DNA of 64,000 nucleotides from a bacterium (GTDB lineage: Bacteria; Patescibacteriota; Minisyncoccia; Phycocordibacterales; UBA918): positions 891 to 64,890 of the forward strand of contig JAYSUD010000007.1 in the NCBI GenBank assembly GCA_043719295.1. The letters run 5' to 3'. Each line of letters starts with the position of its first letter. Position 1 is the stretch's first letter. Position numbers and translations under genes: made by a program. Positions 16,184 to 40,382 of the stretch are shown here, in pieces. The notes under the pieces were generated by a model. It ran no database searches. It was not told the origin of the DNA and was given only the letters and a program-made list of their open reading frames with translations.

Positions 16184-16441
16184 CTACTTTGAATTAGTCA
16201 ATCTTTGTTTCTCTTCACGAGTTAAGTTTTTAAGCTCTGCTTCCTCTTTTTGAGCATAACTTCGATTTTTCTTTCGTTTTTTGTACACCAAAACTACAGG
16301 GCGACGTGCTTTTGTATATTTTGCACCAGAAGTTTTCTTCCCTTCACCATTATGTTCTTGTACTCGACGTGCCACGTCAGTAGTCACCCCAGTATACAAA
16401 GACTCATCACTACAACGGACCATGTATACAAACCACGTCAT
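16184..16441 (-). CDS. GIY-YIG nuclease family protein (UPF0213/YhbQ-like)
   Basis: WFVYMVRCSDESLYTGVTTDVARRVQEHN…RRPVVLVY = GIY-YIG signature; track ORF 16184..16489, likely start MTWFVYMV at 16441. Confidence 0.7.
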   Translation of the reverse strand: MTWFVYMVRCSDESLYTGVTTDVARRVQEHNGEGKKTSGAKYTKARRPVVLVYKKRKKNRSYAQKEEAELKNLTREEKQRLTNSK

Positions 16442-16442
16442 A

Positions 16443-17078
16443 TTACAAAGTTGCACTCTTTCTTCGATGATAGACAAAGAAAAATACAATCACAATTAAG
16501 CAAAAAAGTGGCACATACACCAACGGTGACAAAAGGGTTGTGAACTTTGAATTACCTAAAAATTCTTTGACCTCAAACAGCGTACGTACGTTTGCAAAAT
16601 ATCCACGATTTATCTTCTCAGTCCCTAACATCAAACGATACTTCCCTTCATTGTTAGGAGAACTCACCTCAAGTGTATATACACCAGGTTCAAGATTTGC
16701 TTCAAGTGCCCCTCCATTTCTAAATGTCTCAACAAGCATTCTGTCTTTCACTTCATTCCATGGTTGCTCTTTTATCAAAGTACGCTTAATCTCAGTCACC
16801 CCACGCCGTTCTTGCTTTACAATAATTATTGATACATCATTTTTTTGAACAGCAATATCAGGAATTGATACTGTAGCTTTAAACTGATAGGAGGTTGGAA
16901 CTTCAAATTCAAACGTGTGTGGGTATCCATCGAGACGACCAAAAAATTCTTGAGATGTTGTCGGCTCTGCAATTTGGAGTACTGCGTACTGGTCTTGGGG
17001 CTTTGCAATAACTGAAGTATACGCAAGTGCGCATACTGGCAATAAAAGTAGAATAAAAAATAGAGCTCTCAAAGACAT
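16443..17078 (-). CDS. Secreted protein with C-terminal TM anchor and basic tail
   Basis: Signal peptide (FFILLLLPVCALA); C-terminus LVYVPLFCLIVIVFFFVYHRRK. Confidence 0.45.
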   Translation of the reverse strand: MSLRALFFILLLLPVCALAYTSVIAKPQDQYAVLQIAEPTTSQEFFGRLDGYPHTFEFEVPTSYQFKATVSIPDIAVQKNDVSIIIVKQERRGVTEIKRTLIKEQPWNEVKDRMLVETFRNGGALEANLEPGVYTLEVSSPNNEGKYRLMLGTEKINRGYFANVRTLFEVKEFLGNSKFTTLLSPLVYVPLFCLIVIVFFFVYHRRKSATL

Positions 17079-17118: not shown

Positions 17119-17706
17119 TTATTCAGCGGTGACACCTCCTTCATTGAAACGATCAAACATCATTTGAATTGGACCTTCTTCAATAAGAACAGGGTACGTG
17201 CTTGTCGGGTTTGCCATAAATTCCCATACTGCAATCAAACTTTCTTGAAGAACTGTGTCATTTGCAAGCTTAGTTGAGCAAGTATCAAGTGCATAGGTCT
17301 TTCCTTCTTTTGTCACATCGTACATATAGTCAAGTCCATCAACATAGCTAGCACATTCACCTGAAGTAGTATCTTGCGCAAGCGAAACTAGTTTTTCTGT
17401 AGTGAGTTTTTGGAATACAGAGGTACGCATGTCTACAGGAATCCTTCCGTCAGTTACTTCTGCACGAGGTGTGCTTTGGTACTGATACTTTCTATTGTCT
17501 TGAAGTTTAAATGAGGAGCAGGCATCCATTTCCTGACACCCACCATACATTTTACCTTCAATCACCACTGTATCTTCACTTATTATTTCTGACTCGTCAG
17601 TATTGGGTGCTAGTTCGGGCACAAATACGGTGACATAGAGAAACATTCCCGAAAGTATTCCCATAACAAGCGATGAACCCAAAATAAAGTAAATTTTCCC
17701 TGTCAT
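17119..17706 (-). CDS. Membrane-anchored hypothetical protein
   Basis: Likely start MTGKIYFILGSSLVMGILSGMFLYV (N-terminal TM); several Cys in extracytoplasmic part. Confidence 0.45.
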   Translation of the reverse strand: MTGKIYFILGSSLVMGILSGMFLYVTVFVPELAPNTDESEIISEDTVVIEGKMYGGCQEMDACSSFKLQDNRKYQYQSTPRAEVTDGRIPVDMRTSVFQKLTTEKLVSLAQDTTSGECASYVDGLDYMYDVTKEGKTYALDTCSTKLANDTVLQESLIAVWEFMANPTSTYPVLIEEGPIQMMFDRFNEGGVTAE

Positions 17707-17835
17707 ACAGTTAATTAATTGTAATCTACAGTATAGCAAATGTTTCAAAACACAATCGCACAATCCCTAGATATGGGGTAGAATTCCCTTGCTCAAGTAA
17801 CAGAGACTAGTACACGTAATACATTGATTTTTTAT

Positions 17836-17922
17836 GGAGAGTTCGCATAGTGGTCTAGTGCACTGCCTTGGAAAGGCAGCATCGGGGCAACCTGATCAGG
17901 AGTTCAAATCTCCTACTCTCCG
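17836..17922 (+). tRNA. tRNA-Ser (anticodon GGA), long variable arm
   Basis: Acceptor GGAGAGT/ACTCTCC, 3-bp D-stem, anticodon stem CTGCC/GGCAG with loop TTGGAAA (GGA), 18-nt variable arm, T-arm AGGAG-TTCAAAT-CTCCT, discriminator G. Confidence 0.85.
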
Positions 17923-17925
17923 CAT

Positions 17926-18732
17926 ATGGGATACTGTATATATTGCGATAGCAAAAGTGAACTTACTGACGAACATATCATCCCTCATGGTTTAGGAGGA
18001 AAGCTGATTCTTAAGGACTCGAGCTGTAAAACATGTGCGATTGAGACGAGTCGTCTAGAAGATGCTTTACTCAGGGGTCATTGGGCTAGCGCAAGAAAGC
18101 ACTTAAACATGCCAAGCAGACATAAAAGGAGAAACGAAGGAAATCCTACGATGGCTGAAATAAAAATTATTAGACGTAATGGCATTATCTTATTAGCGCA
18201 AATAAGAGCTGACGAAGCAAATTTTTTGCTTTTGCCGTATCTATTCAGATCTGAATTACTACACGAACCAATATTAGAGGGTATCAAACCGTATGCAAAG
18301 AATTTTGGTTTTATCTTCTTAAAAATTAACGGCCCTTCTAAAGCGTACATCAGTGGTAACGAATACAAATTTGACGGAAGTGAAAAGATTGAAAATATAA
18401 TAAATAAATTTGATTCTAACAATATATTTCGTTTCTTGGCTAAAATTGCTCACTCCTATGCCATACACATCTATGGACTCAGTGCATGTAATGAGTATTA
18501 CTTACCGAAAATAATACTAGGGAATGTTACTGAAGCAATGCAGTATATTGGAAATGCTCCAGATGAGATGCAAAATTTAAGATTAGATAAGTGTGATGAT
18601 TTTCATTCATTAAAATCAGAAATATTAGATGGTCACTTGTGTGTATATATCCAACTCTTCAATGTTACCAACTTTACGCCAACACCTATTTATCAAGTTG
18701 TAGTCGGACGTGTGAATGCACAAGGAGACTAA
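17926..18732 (+). CDS. HNH endonuclease-domain protein with ~215-aa C-terminal domain of unknown function
   Basis: CIYCDSKSELTDEHIIPHGLGG…SSCKTCA (Cys4 zinc finger + HNH His); starts 4 nt after tRNA-Ser; very AT-rich. Confidence 0.6.
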   Translation: MGYCIYCDSKSELTDEHIIPHGLGGKLILKDSSCKTCAIETSRLEDALLRGHWASARKHLNMPSRHKRRNEGNPTMAEIKIIRRNGIILLAQIRADEANFLLLPYLFRSELLHEPILEGIKPYAKNFGFIFLKINGPSKAYISGNEYKFDGSEKIENIINKFDSNNIFRFLAKIAHSYAIHIYGLSACNEYYLPKIILGNVTEAMQYIGNAPDEMQNLRLDKCDDFHSLKSEILDGHLCVYIQLFNVTNFTPTPIYQVVVGRVNAQGD

Positions 18733-18807
18733 TGTGCCCCCCTTATCCAATTGCATATTGTAAAACCTCATCAATAAACAACTCCCGAAACTTTTTTTGA
18801 TTTTTTG

Positions 18808-19608
18808 TCACTTTAATCTTTTCTTCTCAAACTTCTTAATCCGTGTTTTTGCTTTCCCAACACCGTCAACCACTGGCAAATTCTCTGGCATAGTACCGCC
18901 AATATTTCTAATAGTGTTCCTCACTTTTTGTCCAACTTCAAAGTGTGCTAGGTTGGCATTACCTTCGCCTTTAATGTTTTCTCTTCGAATTTTTGCGTCA
19001 GTTTGTGTCGCTCGAAATAGATTGGCTGCTAATTCTTCGCTGTTCATATGATCGAGAATTTGCTGAGATGTGCCTAACTTCTTTTTTTCATGAATATCTT
19101 GCATTGTCATTCCACCATACAATCCTTTATAGCCTGCGTTTTGGAAAATTGCATAATTTTGAACACCTGCACCCTTAGCTGTTTTGGTGAGTGACGTATT
19201 ATGCTTTTTTATTTCTTCACGCAGAAAAACTCGTTTGTTATCTTCAACGAGATTATCCGTGTCTTCTTGGCGATGAGTCTGAATGGCAAAGTAAGTTTGT
19301 CCTTTCGCCACGACAACTTTGGTAGGGTTTGAGTTTTGCACAATCAAATAACACGCATAGCGAGACAAATAGACTGTTTCAACGTTCTTTTCCGCTCCTG
19401 AACCAATTGCGACCATATCGGTGGCTTCAACGAAATGGCTGTGGATAACCTCGCCACTATTCTCGCACGCAACCCTTGCTTTACTTATCACGGTTTGAAA
19501 ATTTCGATAATCGGAGTATTCAAGAGCCTTAGCTAGATCACGAGACGACCAATACTCTGCACCTTGGTCGTCCAAACGCTTGATAGTTTCGAACTGATTT
19601 TCTTTCAT
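18808..19608 (-). CDS. dinD: DinD-family (DNA-damage-inducible protein D-like) protein
   Basis: Hallmark blocks EYWSSRDLAKALEYSDYRNFQ, MVAIGSGAEK, LSRYACYLIVQN, GQTYFAIQT, AIFQNAGYKGLYGG, ELAANLFRATQT, TMPENLP collinear with E. coli DinD as recalled. Confidence 0.8.
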   Translation of the reverse strand: MKENQFETIKRLDDQGAEYWSSRDLAKALEYSDYRNFQTVISKARVACENSGEVIHSHFVEATDMVAIGSGAEKNVETVYLSRYACYLIVQNSNPTKVVVAKGQTYFAIQTHRQEDTDNLVEDNKRVFLREEIKKHNTSLTKTAKGAGVQNYAIFQNAGYKGLYGGMTMQDIHEKKKLGTSQQILDHMNSEELAANLFRATQTDAKIRRENIKGEGNANLAHFEVGQKVRNTIRNIGGTMPENLPVVDGVGKAKTRIKKFEKKRLK

Positions 19609-19701
19609 TACTGCAATTTTACCACATTAATATTGCTGCTTCGTTAAAAAAGACCCAAAAATAACATTTTAGACTCGTAAAAAGTGATATACTGTTTGTA
19701 T

Positions 19702-20166
19702 ATGAAAAATACATTAATTATAGGGGCTGTGGTGATCGTGGTTTTGGCCAGTCTATTATTTATGATTAAACCTAAGGAAACTACAACTATCCCAGTTGTT
19801 ACCCCTCCAAACACACAGGAACAAACTGAGGAAAACGTAAATACTGAAAATGGCCGTATTGGAAATCCGGGAACACCGACAGTTCCAACAGGCAAATTAA
19901 AAGCAGACACATTTACAGGAAAACTTGAAAAAGTTGATGTTGGTTGTTTTGCAGATGGTGAATGTTACGTTGAAGTTGATGGAAAACACATCACAGCAAT
20001 CATGGGTTGGAGCCAGGAGACTGTAGGAAGTATCATCGGAGTTGAAGGGTTTGGAGATCTTGAAAAGTATATTGGAAAAAAAGTTGAAGTATATGCACAA
20101 GACAATAGTGACGGAACATACACACTCTACGGAAGTGAAGGATTCTATATCAAGGTGTTAGAATAG
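19702..20166 (+). CDS. Membrane-anchored/secreted hypothetical protein
   Basis: MKNTLIIGAVVIVVLASLLF N-terminal anchor; Thr/Pro-rich linker; Cys pair. Confidence 0.45.
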   Translation: MKNTLIIGAVVIVVLASLLFMIKPKETTTIPVVTPPNTQEQTEENVNTENGRIGNPGTPTVPTGKLKADTFTGKLEKVDVGCFADGECYVEVDGKHITAIMGWSQETVGSIIGVEGFGDLEKYIGKKVEVYAQDNSDGTYTLYGSEGFYIKVLE

Positions 20167-20171
20167 AAAAG

Positions 20172-20543
20172 ATGAACCCAGTGCAGGAAAAATTAATAGA
20201 AAAAGTCCTCCGTATTGGAGTGGCTTTTTCTTTTATCTACCCACCAATTTCTGCTTTCTTTAACCCATACGCATGGGTAGGATACTTCCCTTCATTCCTA
20301 ACTAATTTGAGCTTCATTGATAGTCTGGCACTCTTGCACATCTTTGGTGTCATAGAGCTCTGTATTGGTATTTGGATTATATTTGGAAAACGAATTTTTA
20401 TTCCATCGCTCCTTGCCTCAGTATTTCTTTTTGCAATTATCATATTCAACTTGGCACAAATTGACGTACTGTTCCGTGATATCCCAATCCTCCTTATGGC
20501 ATTACTACTATGCATAATCGACACACAGAAAAAAAGTCTATAG
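20172..20543 (+). CDS. Small integral membrane protein (DoxX-like)
   Basis: Four predicted TM segments; RIGVAFSFIYPPISAFFNPYAW resembles DoxX family start. Confidence 0.45.
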   Translation: MNPVQEKLIEKVLRIGVAFSFIYPPISAFFNPYAWVGYFPSFLTNLSFIDSLALLHIFGVIELCIGIWIIFGKRIFIPSLLASVFLFAIIIFNLAQIDVLFRDIPILLMALLLCIIDTQKKSL

Positions 20544-20591
20544 AGTATGTTCAAAAGTCCGAGGTCGGACCTCCTCACATGCCAAGACAGC

Positions 20592-20632
20592 GGAAGTTGT
20601 ACATAACGCAACTTCCTCTGTTTTGTTGATGG
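20592..20632 (+). terminator. Rho-independent terminator (GGAAGTTG tacataacg CAACTTCC + TCTGTTTTGTTG)
   Basis: 8-bp perfect stem followed by T-rich tract downstream of 20172..20543. Confidence 0.5.
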
Positions 20633-20689
20633 TCATTAATATTTTTTGACGATATAAAAAGGCCTGACTGTTGGATCCGGCCTATCTCC

Positions 20690-20940
20690 TGTTTTCTACA
20701 GCTCATGCGATGGCAAGCACAGAGGCGAGAGCCTCAAGCCCATCCCGACGCATTTTTGAAGTTCCACCGCCCAAGACTGCCAAAGGAAATACAACCTCGA
20801 TCCAGTCGTGCCGTGCCGCGCCCATACCGAATTGATAAAAGTTCACGCTCTTTGGCTGAGGGTAGTTTCTCGAACAAAGGAAGTTCGTCACAGCATTTGC
20901 GACCCCTTCAGCTTTAAGGTCGAATTTGCAGTACCTGTCA
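20690..20940. other. GC-rich (~55-60% by eye) non-coding-looking segment of unknown nature in an AT-rich genome; candidate structured RNA or remnant of foreign DNA
   Basis: ORFs through it on both strands translate to Arg/Pro-rich low-plausibility peptides; strong compositional contrast with flanks. Confidence 0.3.
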
Positions 20941-20942
20941 TT

Positions 20943-21356
20943 TTGACACCTTCTTTATTCGGCCTAATCGCCCATCGACGCGGACTGATATTTCTCACCT
21001 CAATCATCTGTGCTTACTCCCTAAACCCATCAGTCAGCACAATTGCTGTTGATCGGATTGTGCGAGTAGTAAAGCAAATTGGTGAAAAAACGCAAATTGA
21101 AAGTGCAAAGTATAACCTCGAACGTTTTGTATTGTGGTATATACTTATGAACATGGATAATGAAATACGTGAACGCCTTGAAGCGCAAGATTTAAAACTT
21201 GATGCAATTTATGTATCGGTAGAAAAAACAAGAAAATATTTTCAAATAATACTCTGGGGTACACTCGCCACTGTTGTTGTACCACTTATAGGGCTACTTA
21301 TTGGTATTCCAATCTTCCTCAATTCGTATATGAGCCAGATGGAAGGGTTACTTTAA
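20943..21356 (+). CDS. Hypothetical small membrane protein (start uncertain; TTG at 20943 or ATG at 21144)
   Basis: C-terminal half of track ORF 20808..21356 has TM-like segments (WGTLATVVVPLIGLLIGIPIFL); upstream half overlaps GC-rich segment and looks non-coding. Confidence 0.3.
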   Translation: MTPSLFGLIAHRRGLIFLTSIICAYSLNPSVSTIAVDRIVRVVKQIGEKTQIESAKYNLERFVLWYILMNMDNEIRERLEAQDLKLDAIYVSVEKTRKYFQIILWGTLATVVVPLIGLLIGIPIFLNSYMSQMEGLL

Positions 21357-39533: not shown

Positions 39534-40382
39534 TTACACAATCTCAATAAAAACAGGCCTCAACTCCTTCCAATGCTCTTTATCCATACTCAACACTGAA
39601 AACATTCCTTCATCGAGAAGACCAATGCCACGTATCTTTATGGTCTCATCTTTAAAAACAGCTTCGACATAGCAGACGTGCCCTCTATCCTCAACAACAT
39701 ACTCCATGATACTGCCAATTTTTGGAATGATGCCGATATGGATTCCTTCTTTTCCACGCAATATTTTTTGCCATGAACCTCCCACACGTCCATATGTAGT
39801 TGGCCAAGAAATATGAACATTTTTTCGATACAATGTATACAGTACATATTCAACGTCACACAATGGCAATGTTGCAACAGCTGCGTTAAATGCATCTGTA
39901 ATACACAGGCGAAGTTTTATTGTCTCAACATCATCAGCCTCATATACCTGACCTTCTACAAGAGATGGAAAAACATCAGAAAGTTGTTCACGGAGCATAT
40001 CTTTTAAAATCCATCCTTCTGTATTCCCCATTTTGACATGCGCCCACCGTCCACCAAACTTAATGACCAAGACAATGTCACCATAGGTAAGCTTAGCTAC
40101 AACTGAGTCAAATGCAATGACGGGGTCAAGATACAACGCAGCTTCAGGTTCTCCAACAAAATACGCAAGACCAGGCGATAGACTTATATCACTTTCATTT
40201 TGGCCTAGAGATACAGTTTCACTATTTACTTGCCCATGAAGCGGTAATAATAATTGAGGAGATGGTATGTGTCTATCTTCATAAGAAGAAACGGAGTTTC
40301 GAATATCTTCAAAAAAGACACCGAAAACTGCCGTGCGAGCAAACTTCCATAAATCATCCAAAACTGCCATGAGTACCTGCAT
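39534..40382 (-). CDS. SH3b-domain protein with putative permuted papain-like (NlpC/P60 or YiiX-like) hydrolase domain; no signal peptide
   Basis: YGDIVLVIKFGGRWAHVKMGNTEGWILKDML (SH3b-like); C-terminal …GIHIGIIPKIGSIMEYVVEDRGHVCYVEAVF with Cys/His candidates; tentative. Confidence 0.35.
   Translation of the reverse strand: MQVLMAVLDDLWKFARTAVFGVFFEDIRNSVSSYEDRHIPSPQLLLPLHGQVNSETVSLGQNESDISLSPGLAYFVGEPEAALYLDPVIAFDSVVAKLTYGDIVLVIKFGGRWAHVKMGNTEGWILKDMLREQLSDVFPSLVEGQVYEADDVETIKLRLCITDAFNAAVATLPLCDVEYVLYTLYRKNVHISWPTTYGRVGGSWQKILRGKEGIHIGIIPKIGSIMEYVVEDRGHVCYVEAVFKDETIKIRGIGLLDEGMFSVLSMDKEHWKELRPVFIEIV

What the first reader, a model, noticed from the sequence alone, without database searches (positions are those of the whole stretch)
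17836..19683. tRNA-Ser-adjacent two-gene islet: HNH-domain protein plus DinD-family protein
An ORF starts 4 nt after the 3' end of tRNA-Ser(GGA). It encodes an N-terminal Cys4/His HNH nuclease motif (CIYC…DEHIIP…CKTC) fused to a ~215-aa unknown domain. A DinD-like (DNA-damage-inducible protein D family) gene follows convergently. Both are strongly AT-rich, and no integrase is present. tRNA 3' ends are classic integration sites. HNH nucleases with novel C-terminal domains are common in abortive-infection and defence modules, and DinD/Bro-like proteins are typical of mobile or defence islands. This is a plausible uncharacterised nuclease-based defence or addiction module.
Basis: partly seen in the sequence, partly recalled or inferred. 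Interest (0 to 1): 0.6.

Follow-up and report, generated by a model that had tools for sequence, protein, structure and literature searches.

The report
Solo HNH nuclease fused to tRNA-Ser
Directly after a serine tRNA gene in a small-genome (Parcubacteria-type) bacterium lie two unrelated stand-alone genes: an uncharacterised nuclease that has no promoter or leader of its own, and an ordinary DinD gene. They are not the two-gene defence module that was proposed.

Summary
The sequence features are real. tRNA-Ser(GGA) lies at 17836-17923. An intact 268-aa ORF (17926-18732) has a Cys4/His HNH finger. A convergent DinD orthologue lies at 18808-19608. No integrase lies nearby.

Three parts of the interpretation fail.
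- The genes are not strongly AT-rich.
- The window holds no att repeat.
- The genes are not a conserved pair. DinD was absent from all 17 genome-collection loci with an HNH homologue and from the other HNH contexts examined.

The slot does vary. One relative carries dapB, dapA and a peptidoglycan-binding gene there. A more distant one carries tRNA-Ser, HNH and the same downstream gene, but no DinD.

The HNH protein belongs to a large unnamed family (about 2,500 clusters at E<=1e-30). Members are solo genes in varied contexts. The C-terminal roughly 215 aa match no Pfam family, and the model matches no solved or viral structure.

The start codon sits 2-3 nt after the tRNA end in two diverged genomes, and this genome appears to use leaderless mRNAs. 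I infer read-through from the tRNA plus 3' processing. The tRNA allele also tracks HNH presence rather than relatedness, which is unexplained.

My best guess is a stand-alone defence or exclusion nuclease. DinD is a separate, highly conserved insertion. Interest is moderate.

The parts
17836..17923 (+). tRNA-Ser(GGA), type II tRNA. CCA is not encoded: the discriminator G17922 is followed by CAT and then ATG.
   Evidence: ARAGORN, Rfam RF00005 at 55.5 bits, sequence. It is 95.5% identical to the tRNA of the HNH-bearing L031, but only 74-78% identical to the tRNAs of the closer, HNH-less relatives L026, L027 and L029.
17926..18732 (+). Intact 268-aa gene of an unnamed family: an N-terminal Zn-ribbon HNH finger joined to a family-specific C-terminal domain.
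   Evidence: ORF. 98 full-length homologues. 6,709, 4,537 and 2,539 cluster representatives at E<=1e-3, 1e-10 and 1e-30. AlphaFold2 model with pLDDT 94.4 and pTM 0.92.
17935..18075 (+). HNH beta-beta-alpha metal finger, residues 4-50. It contains Cys4 (C4, C7, C34, C37) and the E16-H17 catalytic dyad. Position 38, where the canonical Asn follows the second CxxC, is Ala.
   Evidence: Pfam HNH_5. Predicted strands 13-17 and 28-34 and helix 35-49. C4, E16, H17, C34 and E45 are invariant in 77 sequences, with C7 in 75 and C37 in 76. Position 38 is A35/E20/N7/Q6/S6. Weak profile match to the HNH of IscB-type proteins.
18076..18729 (+). C-terminal alpha/beta domain, residues 51-268, with the signature helix FLAKIAHSY (K173 invariant). 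Function unknown.
   Evidence: No Pfam family in 77 members. No Foldseek match at E<=1e-3 for the whole-chain model in the PDB or BFVD, with best query TM 0.22 and 0.18. Conservation.
18733..18807 (.). 75-nt spacer between the convergent HNH and DinD genes.
   Evidence: Sequence. No terminator-like site found by the scan.
18808..19608 (-). DinD (DNA damage-inducible protein D) orthologue with an N-terminal Bro-N domain. It is an independent single-gene insertion compared with L031.
   Evidence: NF008573 at E 1e-106, PADLOC candidate PDC-S13 at 3e-108, Bro-N at 1.8e-12, phrog_8036. Absent between HNH and the downstream gene in L031. Nucleotide homology to other DinD loci covers only the ORF plus 7-19 nt upstream.
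19616..19624 (-). Extended -10 box (TGGTAAAAT) that ends 7 nt before the DinD ATG. This is a leaderless-type promoter.
   Evidence: Sequence. The same geometry occurs at 23 of 57 long ORFs of the window, against 10% of all ATGs.
19679..19704 (+). Right edge of the window-specific segment. It holds the extended -10 box (TGATATACT, 19685-19693) and the ATG (19702) of the conserved 154-aa downstream gene.
   Evidence: Homology to L027 resumes at 19679. The gene is conserved in L027 (74% aa) and L031 (55% aa).

Best explanation
The stretch between tRNA-Ser(GGA) and a conserved 154-aa membrane-anchored protein gene is a variable slot in this Parcubacteria/Paceibacterota-type lineage. In the window it holds two unrelated single-gene units.

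(1) The HNH gene. It belongs to a large, unnamed, horizontally scattered family of ~265-aa proteins. Each has an N-terminal zinc-ribbon HNH finger packed against a family-specific domain with no detectable relatives. It has no promoter or leader of its own. I infer that it is transcribed by read-through from the tRNA promoter. Cleavage of the CCA-less tRNA precursor after the discriminator base (RNase Z-type processing) would leave an mRNA with a 3-nt leader. This organism could translate such an mRNA because leaderless initiation seems to be its normal mode. The most likely function is a stand-alone DNA nuclease for defence or exclusion, type IV-restriction-like. In that scheme the C-terminal domain selects the substrate and the E16-H17 site cuts.

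(2) The DinD gene. It has its own leaderless promoter and was inserted later in the opposite orientation. It is an orthologue of a gene that is very strongly conserved in this group. By homology it is a Bro-N DNA-binding protein. From my own knowledge (not checked here), E. coli DinD inhibits RecA filaments.

Shown: gene identities, absence of pairing, slot variability, tRNA-HNH adjacency in two genomes, and the leaderless promoter pattern. Inferred: co-transcription and processing, nuclease activity, and the defence role.
For: - Identity and intactness of both genes.
- No conserved partner. DinD is absent from all 17 genome-collection loci. The neighbours of 15 genome loci and 10 viral loci are heterogeneous.
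- Slot variability. Homology to L027 breaks at 17924 and resumes at 19679. L027 has dapB, dapA and a PG_binding_1 gene there, and L029 has a DUF4331 gene.
- In L031 the tRNA-Ser ends at 957 and the HNH ATG is at 961. The orthologue of window gene 19702-20166 follows directly.
- Leaderless usage. 23 of 57 long ORFs have TANNNT ending 5-9 nt before the ATG, against 10% background. SD-like motifs occur at 5 of 57, which equals background.
- Defence leaning. In the P2-like prophage L035 a family member lies between the portal gene and gpA, next to HicB. PMC9122126 describes this cos-proximal region as a defence hotspot. RM, GmrSD and PDC-type genes occur among neighbours.
- Most of the 90%-identity clusters listed are singletons spread over many phyla.
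- DinD is independent. It is 77-91% identical in many lineages and sits in other contexts.
Against: - No PADLOC, PHROG or NCBIfam model matches the HNH protein.
- The canonical metal-binding Asn after the second CxxC is Ala here and varies across the family, so catalytic competence is unproven.
- Many homologues sit among ordinary metabolic genes, and the defence-neighbour signal was not tested statistically.
- No transcript data exist. A weak -10-like TACTCT inside the tRNA acceptor arm cannot be excluded as an internal promoter.
- HNH at the same site in two genomes 59% identical in protein could mean long vertical retention, that is, a lineage housekeeping role.
Confidence: 0.5

Rival explanations
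1. Selfish tRNA-linked cassette. The HNH protein is a free-standing homing-type endonuclease. It cuts HNH-less tRNA-Ser(GGA) alleles and is copied in by repair, converting the neighbouring tRNA gene at the same time. From my own knowledge, this resembles the phage T4 Seg and Mob free-standing endonucleases, including SegB in the T4 tRNA region.
For: - The start codon abuts the tRNA in two diverged genomes.
- The tRNA allele tracks HNH. Window and L031 are 95.5% identical. Window and L026 are 74% and window and L027 77.5%. Yet L026 flanks are 86-93% nt identical to the window, and the downstream protein is 74% identical to L027 against 55% to L031.
- The site is polymorphic for presence and absence.
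- Two independent assemblies break at this tRNA (L001 starts inside it, L026 ends in it).
Against: - The two HNH proteins are only 59% identical, so any transfer is old.
- tRNAs are slow-evolving, so 95% identity may simply be the ancestral state.
- In the other 15 full-length genome-collection loci the nearest tRNA, where one was found at all, is about 2-7 kb from the gene, and the neighbours of those loci share no conserved gene.
- There were no matches in 50,697 phage genomes.
Confidence: 0.12
2. One reading: HNH and DinD together form a two-gene nuclease-based defence or addiction module brought in by integration at the tRNA.
For: - The two genes are adjacent and lie at a tRNA 3' end.
- DinD matches the PADLOC candidate PDC-S13 and the N-terminal part of a type I specificity-subunit model.
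- Both genes are missing from L027.
Against: - The orientation is convergent.
- DinD is absent from all 17 genome-collection loci with an HNH homologue, and no Bro-N gene is listed in the other HNH contexts examined.
- L031 has HNH at the same site without DinD.
- DinD homologues of 88-90% identity lie elsewhere without HNH.
- There is no att repeat, no integrase and no compositional deviation.
Confidence: 0.05
3. Relic of a decayed tRNA-Ser-integrated island. HNH was the gene next to attL of an old element. The window and L031 kept HNH but lost the integrase and attR. L027 and L029 kept both element ends and lost the interior. On this view HNH may have no present role tied to the tRNA.
For: - L027 and L029 have a direct repeat of the last 18-22 nt of the tRNA about 125 nt downstream.
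- L027 and L028 carry the first 12 nt of the window's HNH ORF (ATGGGATACTGT) 31 nt after the tRNA, preceded by AAGGAGG. The 12-mer is unique among 56 loci.
Against: - The HNH ORF is intact with all family-invariant residues, so it is under selection.
- The spacer in L027 and L029 keeps hairpins through compensatory changes (43 predicted pairs, 8 compensatory). That suggests function rather than decay.
- The 12-mer is part of one of those hairpins.
Confidence: 0.18
4. A lineage housekeeping nuclease (repair or processing) that happens to lie after the tRNA and is inherited vertically.
For: - Same position and same downstream gene in the window and L031, with commensurate divergence: HNH 59% aa and neighbour 55% aa over the full length, or 66% over the conserved C-terminal 117 aa.
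- Composition matches the genome.
Against: - HNH is absent from the closer relative L027, and from L029 as far as its contig reaches.
- Family distribution is patchy across phyla, and most of the listed clusters are singletons.
- Some members lie in prophages and on megaplasmids.
Confidence: 0.1

Closest known systems
HNH / His-Me finger nucleases of the Pfam HNH_5 type (group 1 and the unannotated group 8 of Jablonska et al. 2017, PMC5714182)
   Same: Cys4 zinc ribbon, beta-beta-alpha core, and an invariant acidic-His dyad (E16-H17). The Pfam score is above the gathering cut-off. RefSeq annotates homologues simply as 'HNH endonuclease'.
   Different: The canonical Asn or His metal ligand after the second CxxC is not conserved and is Ala38 here. 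The finger is N-terminal and joined to a ~215-aa domain with no Pfam family, and the whole-chain model has no structural neighbour. No member has been studied, as far as the held literature shows.
Stand-alone modification-dependent (type IV) restriction nucleases such as McrA (own knowledge)
   Same: A solo gene with no methyltransferase partner. It combines an HNH nuclease with a separate putative recognition domain, and its distribution is sporadic, sometimes in defence regions.
   Different: The domain order is reversed, with HNH at the N-terminus. No reader domain (for example SRA-type) was recognised. No PADLOC model matches. Activity is untested.
E. coli DinD / PADLOC candidate PDC-S13 (for the second gene)
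   Same: Full-length equivalog match covering residues 3-264 of 266, with a Bro-N domain.
   Different: It lies in a Parcubacteria-type genome with a leaderless promoter. SOS/LexA control is unknown. It is extremely conserved within this group, at 77-91% identity.
Free-standing homing endonucleases next to tRNA genes (phage T4 SegB; own knowledge)
   Same: A nuclease gene sits hard against a tRNA gene. The site is polymorphic, and the flanking tRNA allele travels with the nuclease gene.
   Different: SegB is a GIY-YIG enzyme in a phage. Here the setting is chromosomal and cleavage specificity is unknown. In most other loci examined the family gene is not next to a tRNA.
tRNA-punctuated, leaderless mRNAs of mitochondria (own knowledge)
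   Same: The coding sequence begins within a few nucleotides of a tRNA 3' end. tRNA processing would therefore create the translatable 5' end.
   Different: This is a bacterial chromosome and a single case. It is inferred from sequence geometry and the genome-wide leaderless promoter pattern, not from RNA data.

Membership tests
HNH (His-Me finger) nuclease, Pfam HNH_5 | Profile score above the curated cut-off | tested here: met
   32.9 bits against 27.5, residues 4-40. 75 of 77 family members match HNH_5.
HNH (His-Me finger) nuclease, Pfam HNH_5 | Beta-beta-alpha fold with a Cys4 zinc site | tested here: met
   Strands 13-17 and 28-34, helix 35-49, local pLDDT 95-98. C4 and C34 are invariant, C7 is present in 75 of 77 and C37 in 76 of 77.
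HNH (His-Me finger) nuclease, Pfam HNH_5 | General-base His preceded by an acidic metal ligand | tested here: met
   E16 and H17 are invariant in 77 sequences.
HNH (His-Me finger) nuclease, Pfam HNH_5 | Second metal ligand (Asn or His) right after the second CxxC | tested here: not met
   Position 38 is Ala in the window protein. Across the family it is A35/E20/N7/Q6/S6. The invariant E45 on the same helix might substitute, but this was not tested.
HNH (His-Me finger) nuclease, Pfam HNH_5 | Nuclease activity | not testable with these tools
   Needs biochemistry.
DinD (NCBIfam NF008573 equivalog) | Full-length score above the equivalog cut-off, plus a Bro-N domain | tested here: met
   356.2 bits against 242. 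Bro-N at E 1.8e-12.
DinD (NCBIfam NF008573 equivalog) | DNA-damage (LexA) induction and RecA inhibition | not tested
   No LexA-box analysis was done. The upstream region shows only a leaderless -10 box.
tRNA-integrated genomic island | Located at the 3' end of a tRNA gene and variable between relatives | tested here: met
   Homology to L027 stops at 17924 and resumes at 19679. The cargo differs in L027 and L029.
tRNA-integrated genomic island | Direct repeat of the tRNA 3' end at the far boundary | tested here: not met
   The only copy in the 64 kb, allowing up to 3 mismatches, is the tRNA itself. Such repeats do exist in L027 and L029, around a 125-nt spacer.
tRNA-integrated genomic island | Integrase or recombinase gene | tested here: not met
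   None in the long ORFs between 4.7 and 28 kb, nor in the precomputed annotations of L001 and of the related contig L026.
tRNA-integrated genomic island | Composition different from the host | tested here: not met
   HNH has 35.6% GC and GC3 of 30.5%. DinD has 40.6% GC. The genome has 39.8% GC and a mean GC3 of 30.4%.
Two-gene defence or toxin-antitoxin module | The two genes co-occur and are co-oriented across genomes | tested here: not met
   DinD is absent from all 17 genome-collection loci. L031 lacks DinD. DinD homologues lie elsewhere. The genes are convergent.
Known anti-phage systems (PADLOC-DB 2.0) | A model match for the HNH protein | tested here: not met
   No match at E<=0.1. Among 77 members there are only marginal HNH-level similarities to PtuB, best E 0.0027. 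Newer DefenseFinder models were not available.
Type II restriction-modification | An adjacent cognate methyltransferase | tested here: not met
   None in the window. Each methyltransferase model matched only one of the 93 neighbour ORFs from 15 loci, so methyltransferases are not a recurrent neighbour.
Free-standing homing endonuclease | Sits beside a conserved target gene at a presence/absence-polymorphic site, with co-conversion of the flank | tested here: inconclusive
   Adjacency is seen in 2 genomes, and the tRNA allele tracks HNH. This rests on only five tRNA loci, and in most other loci examined the family gene is not next to a tRNA.
Free-standing homing endonuclease | Cleaves the allele that lacks it | not testable with these tools
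   Needs a cleavage assay on L026- or L027-type tRNA-Ser DNA.

The most novel reading that the evidence does not exclude
tRNA-Ser(GGA) and the HNH gene form one selfish or co-adapted cassette. The nuclease mRNA is the tRNA trailer. It is released by tRNA 3' processing and translated without a leader. The nuclease targets tRNA-Ser alleles that lack it, so the tRNA allele and the nuclease spread together. This would explain why this tRNA differs so much between close relatives.
Probability: 0.1. Interest if true: 0.75.

Novelty: new variant of a known kind. Interest (0 to 1): 0.4.

Why it matters
The HNH protein stands for a large family that nobody has studied: thousands of 50%-identity clusters across many phyla. 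Its second domain has no Pfam family, and the predicted fold matches no solved or viral structure. Family members appear as solo genes, one of them in a known prophage defence hotspot. That makes the family a reasonable candidate for a new single-protein defence nuclease.

The tRNA-abutting start codon, in a genome that appears to run on leaderless mRNAs, offers a directly testable case of tRNA-punctuated gene expression in a bacterium. The mismatch between tRNA allele and organismal relatedness points to unusual dynamics at this tRNA gene.

DinD and the proposed two-gene module are ordinary or unsupported.

Tried and rejected
- att search. No repeat of the tRNA 3' end was found in the window.
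- Two-gene module. Rejected from the co-occurrence data.
- DUF3592 as a partner gene. It lies next to homologues in two loci but was not among the recurrent neighbour families in 15 loci.
- Phage packaging HNH. Terminase genes lie within 3 kb in several prophage loci. In L035, however, the gene sits in the accessory region between portal and gpA, and no phage genome matched.
- Profile search of the PDB. It found only the HNH finger of IscB-type proteins, plus a spurious match to a cytochrome c555 trimer on the LAKIA motif.
- Rfam. Only the tRNA was found in the window. Nothing was found in the spacer of relative L027 or in window 20450-21150.
- Structured RNA at 20655-21010. Fold z-scores of -0.15 and -0.25 give no support.
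- Promoter and terminator scan of 17500-19900. No plus-strand promoter and no terminator was found.
- Second metagenome or genome scan for more tRNA-Ser/HNH cassettes.
Full report
**What is there**

ARAGORN and Rfam place tRNA-Ser(GGA) at 17836-17923. A 268-aa ORF follows at 17926-18732 and begins MGYCIYC...DEHIIP...CKTC. No other in-frame start upstream of the family-invariant Cys4 exists, so the ATG lies 3 nt after the tRNA discriminator base. Pfam HNH_5 matches residues 4-40 above its cut-off. A convergent 266-aa ORF at 18808-19608 is a full-length DinD equivalog with a Bro-N domain. It also matches the PADLOC candidate PDC-S13.

Pfam scans of the long ORFs between 4.7 and 28 kb found no integrase, and the precomputed annotations of L001 and of the related contig L026 list none either.

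- The genes are not strongly AT-rich. HNH is 35.6% GC with a GC3 of 30.5%, equal to the genome mean. DinD is 40.6% and the window 39.8%.
- The window has no repeat of the tRNA 3' end.

**The HNH protein**

It has 98 full-length homologues of 240-450 aa, mostly 255-300 aa, in the word-indexed search. A profile search of 1.84 billion cluster representatives finds 6,709 at E<=1e-3 and 2,539 at E<=1e-30.

C4, Y6, E16, H17, P20, C34, E45 and K173 are invariant in 77 sequences, and C7 and C37 nearly so. Position 38 normally carries the metal-binding Asn after the second CxxC. It is Ala here and varies across the family.

AlphaFold2 gives a confident single globule (pLDDT 94.4, pTM 0.92). A beta-beta-alpha finger occupies residues 13-49, and an alpha/beta body surrounds the FLAKIAHSY helix.

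The body has no detectable relatives:
- Foldseek finds nothing for the whole-chain model at E<=1e-3 in the PDB or in viral models. The best query TM scores are 0.22 and 0.18.
- None of the 77 members has a Pfam family beyond HNH.
- PADLOC, PHROGs and NCBIfam have no model for it.
- RefSeq calls homologues 'HNH endonuclease'.
- The His-Me finger survey lists an unannotated HNH_5 group but does not discuss it.

**Not a pair**

DinD is absent from all 17 genome-collection loci that encode a relative of the HNH protein, and no Bro-N gene is listed in the other HNH contexts examined. The neighbours of 15 genome loci are heterogeneous and mostly metabolic. A few are RM, GmrSD, MobA, IS or terminase genes.

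Close DinD homologues (88-90% identical) sit next to glmS or DUF2130 genes. Nucleotide homology there is confined to the ORF and its -10 box. DinD has more than 7,900 strong homologues. More than a hundred clusters are 77-91% identical, and the few that carry source names are Paceibacterota, Nomurabacteria, Minisyncoccota and Taylorbacteria. DinD is therefore a strongly constrained gene of this group, placed at varying positions.

**The slot is variable, but HNH is tied to the tRNA**

The contigs of relatives were found through the upstream 214-aa protein.
- In L027, homology to the window runs to 17924, the tRNA end, and resumes at 19679. The interval holds dapB, dapA and a PG_binding_1 gene instead.
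- In L029, a DUF4331 gene follows the tRNA.
- L031 carries the closest HNH homologue (59% aa). It has tRNA-Ser(GGA) at 870-957, the HNH ATG at 961, and then directly the orthologue of window gene 19702-20166, with no DinD.

The conserved frame is therefore tRNA-Ser, then a slot, then the 154-aa gene. HNH occupies the slot in two diverged genomes. DinD is an extra insertion in the window lineage.

**How HNH can be expressed**

There is no room for a promoter or ribosome-binding site between the tRNA and the ATG. In this window, 23 of 57 long ORFs have a TANNNT box ending 5-9 nt before the ATG, against 10% of all ATGs. SD-like motifs are at background, 5 of 57. DinD and the 154-aa gene show textbook extended -10 boxes 7-8 nt before their ATGs.

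The organism therefore seems to rely on leaderless mRNAs. The tRNA gene does not encode CCA. From general knowledge, cleavage after the discriminator by RNase Z-type processing would leave an mRNA that starts CAUAUG. This is inferred, not shown.

**Unexplained features**

1. The tRNA allele follows HNH presence, not relatedness.
   - Window and L031 tRNAs are 95.5% identical. Window against L026 is 74%, against L027 77.5% and against L029 74%.
   - Yet L026 flanks are 86-93% nt identical to the window.
   - The downstream protein is 74% identical to L027 but only 55% to L031.
2. In L027, L028 and L029 the tRNA is followed by a ~125-nt spacer and then a direct repeat of the last 18-22 nt of the tRNA. 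This is a classic att signature.
   - The spacer keeps its hairpins through compensatory changes: 43 predicted pairs, 8 of them compensatory, from only two sequences.
   - Rfam has no match for it.
3. The first 12 nt of the window's HNH ORF recur 31 nt after the tRNA in L027 and L028, preceded by AAGGAGG. They occur nowhere else in 56 loci.

These observations fit three accounts: an old island whose attL-proximal gene was HNH, a cassette that moves together with its tRNA, or homing-type co-conversion. I cannot separate them with five loci.

**Function**

The family is patchy across Pseudomonadota, Bacteroidota, Deinococcota, Chloroflexota, Acidobacteriota and this group. It is always a solo gene. 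It is rare on plasmids (5 records) and absent from 50,697 phage genomes at this sensitivity. It is present in 16 predicted viral or prophage contigs.

In the P2-like prophage L035 it lies between the portal gene and gpA, beside HicB. PMC9122126 describes this cos-proximal region as a defence hotspot.

I therefore favour a stand-alone defence or exclusion nuclease. Confidence is modest, because the second metal ligand is missing and many copies sit among metabolic genes.

**Verdict**

- The 'two-gene module' reading is not supported.
- The HNH gene is an intact member of a large unstudied family with an unusual, conserved linkage to tRNA-Ser.
- DinD is ordinary.

Noticed in passing
L027:6200-6340 (-), L028:1-93 (-), L029:2970-3112 (-): In HNH-less relatives the tRNA-Ser is followed by a conserved ~125-nt hairpin-rich spacer. 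A direct repeat of the last 18-22 nt of the tRNA follows it. Between L027 and L029 there are 43 predicted pairs, 8 with compensatory changes. Rfam has no match. It could be an att remnant, a miniature element or an unknown small RNA with a tRNA-like 3' end.
   Followed up: partly
window 17836-17923 versus L026, L027, L029, L031: The tRNA-Ser(GGA) sequence is only 74-78% identical between the window and close relatives whose flanks are 71-93% identical. It is 95.5% identical to a more distant genome that also carries HNH. Two independent assemblies (L001, L026) break inside this tRNA.
   Followed up: partly
whole window (for example 19616-19624 -, 19685-19693 +, 39534-40382 upstream): The genome appears to use leaderless transcripts. 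23 of 57 long ORFs have a -10-like box ending 5-9 nt before the ATG, often with an upstream TG, against 10% of all ATGs. Shine-Dalgarno-like motifs are at background frequency.
   Followed up: partly
window 20532-21100: A ~570-nt stretch is replaced by only ~180 nt in relative L027. It has higher GC (0.44-0.48), no Rfam match and no excess folding energy on either strand. It may be a decayed gene or the extended 5' part of ORF 20808-21356.
   Followed up: partly
window 18808-19608 and homologues (P0252-P0370): DinD is exceptionally conserved in this group of small-genome bacteria, at 77-91% aa identity in more than 100 clusters. Nucleotide identity is ~80%, and the gene sits at different genomic positions. 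This suggests strong selection on a gene whose role in these organisms is unknown.
   Followed up: partly
L035:1811-10480: This P2-like prophage has, in order: terminase, portal, two small ORFs (114 and 90 aa, no Pfam match), HicB, an HNH-family gene, two unknown genes and gpA. The family member thus lies in the cos-proximal defence hotspot described for P2-like phages.
   Followed up: yes
L019:7238-7612 and L023/L024/L025 (for example L023:8933-9400): A small DUF3592 membrane-protein gene lies next to the HNH homologue in a Trueperaceae MAG and in contigs attributed to Hydrogenophaga. It was not recurrent in the 15-locus neighbour survey.
   Followed up: partly
L050:144-1055: A 43%-identical HNH homologue is followed 56 nt downstream by a tRNA-Lys(TTT) gene. 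This is another tRNA-adjacent copy, but on the other side of the gene.
   Followed up: no
L019:6032-7109: A HaeII-type restriction endonuclease gene split into two ORFs (probably a pseudogene) lies about 900 nt upstream of the Trueperaceae HNH homologue.
   Followed up: no
window 16184-16489: A small GIY-YIG (URI-type) protein gene lies 1.3 kb upstream of the tRNA. It is conserved in the relatives L026, L027 and L029, so it belongs to the stable flank and not to the variable slot.
   Followed up: yes
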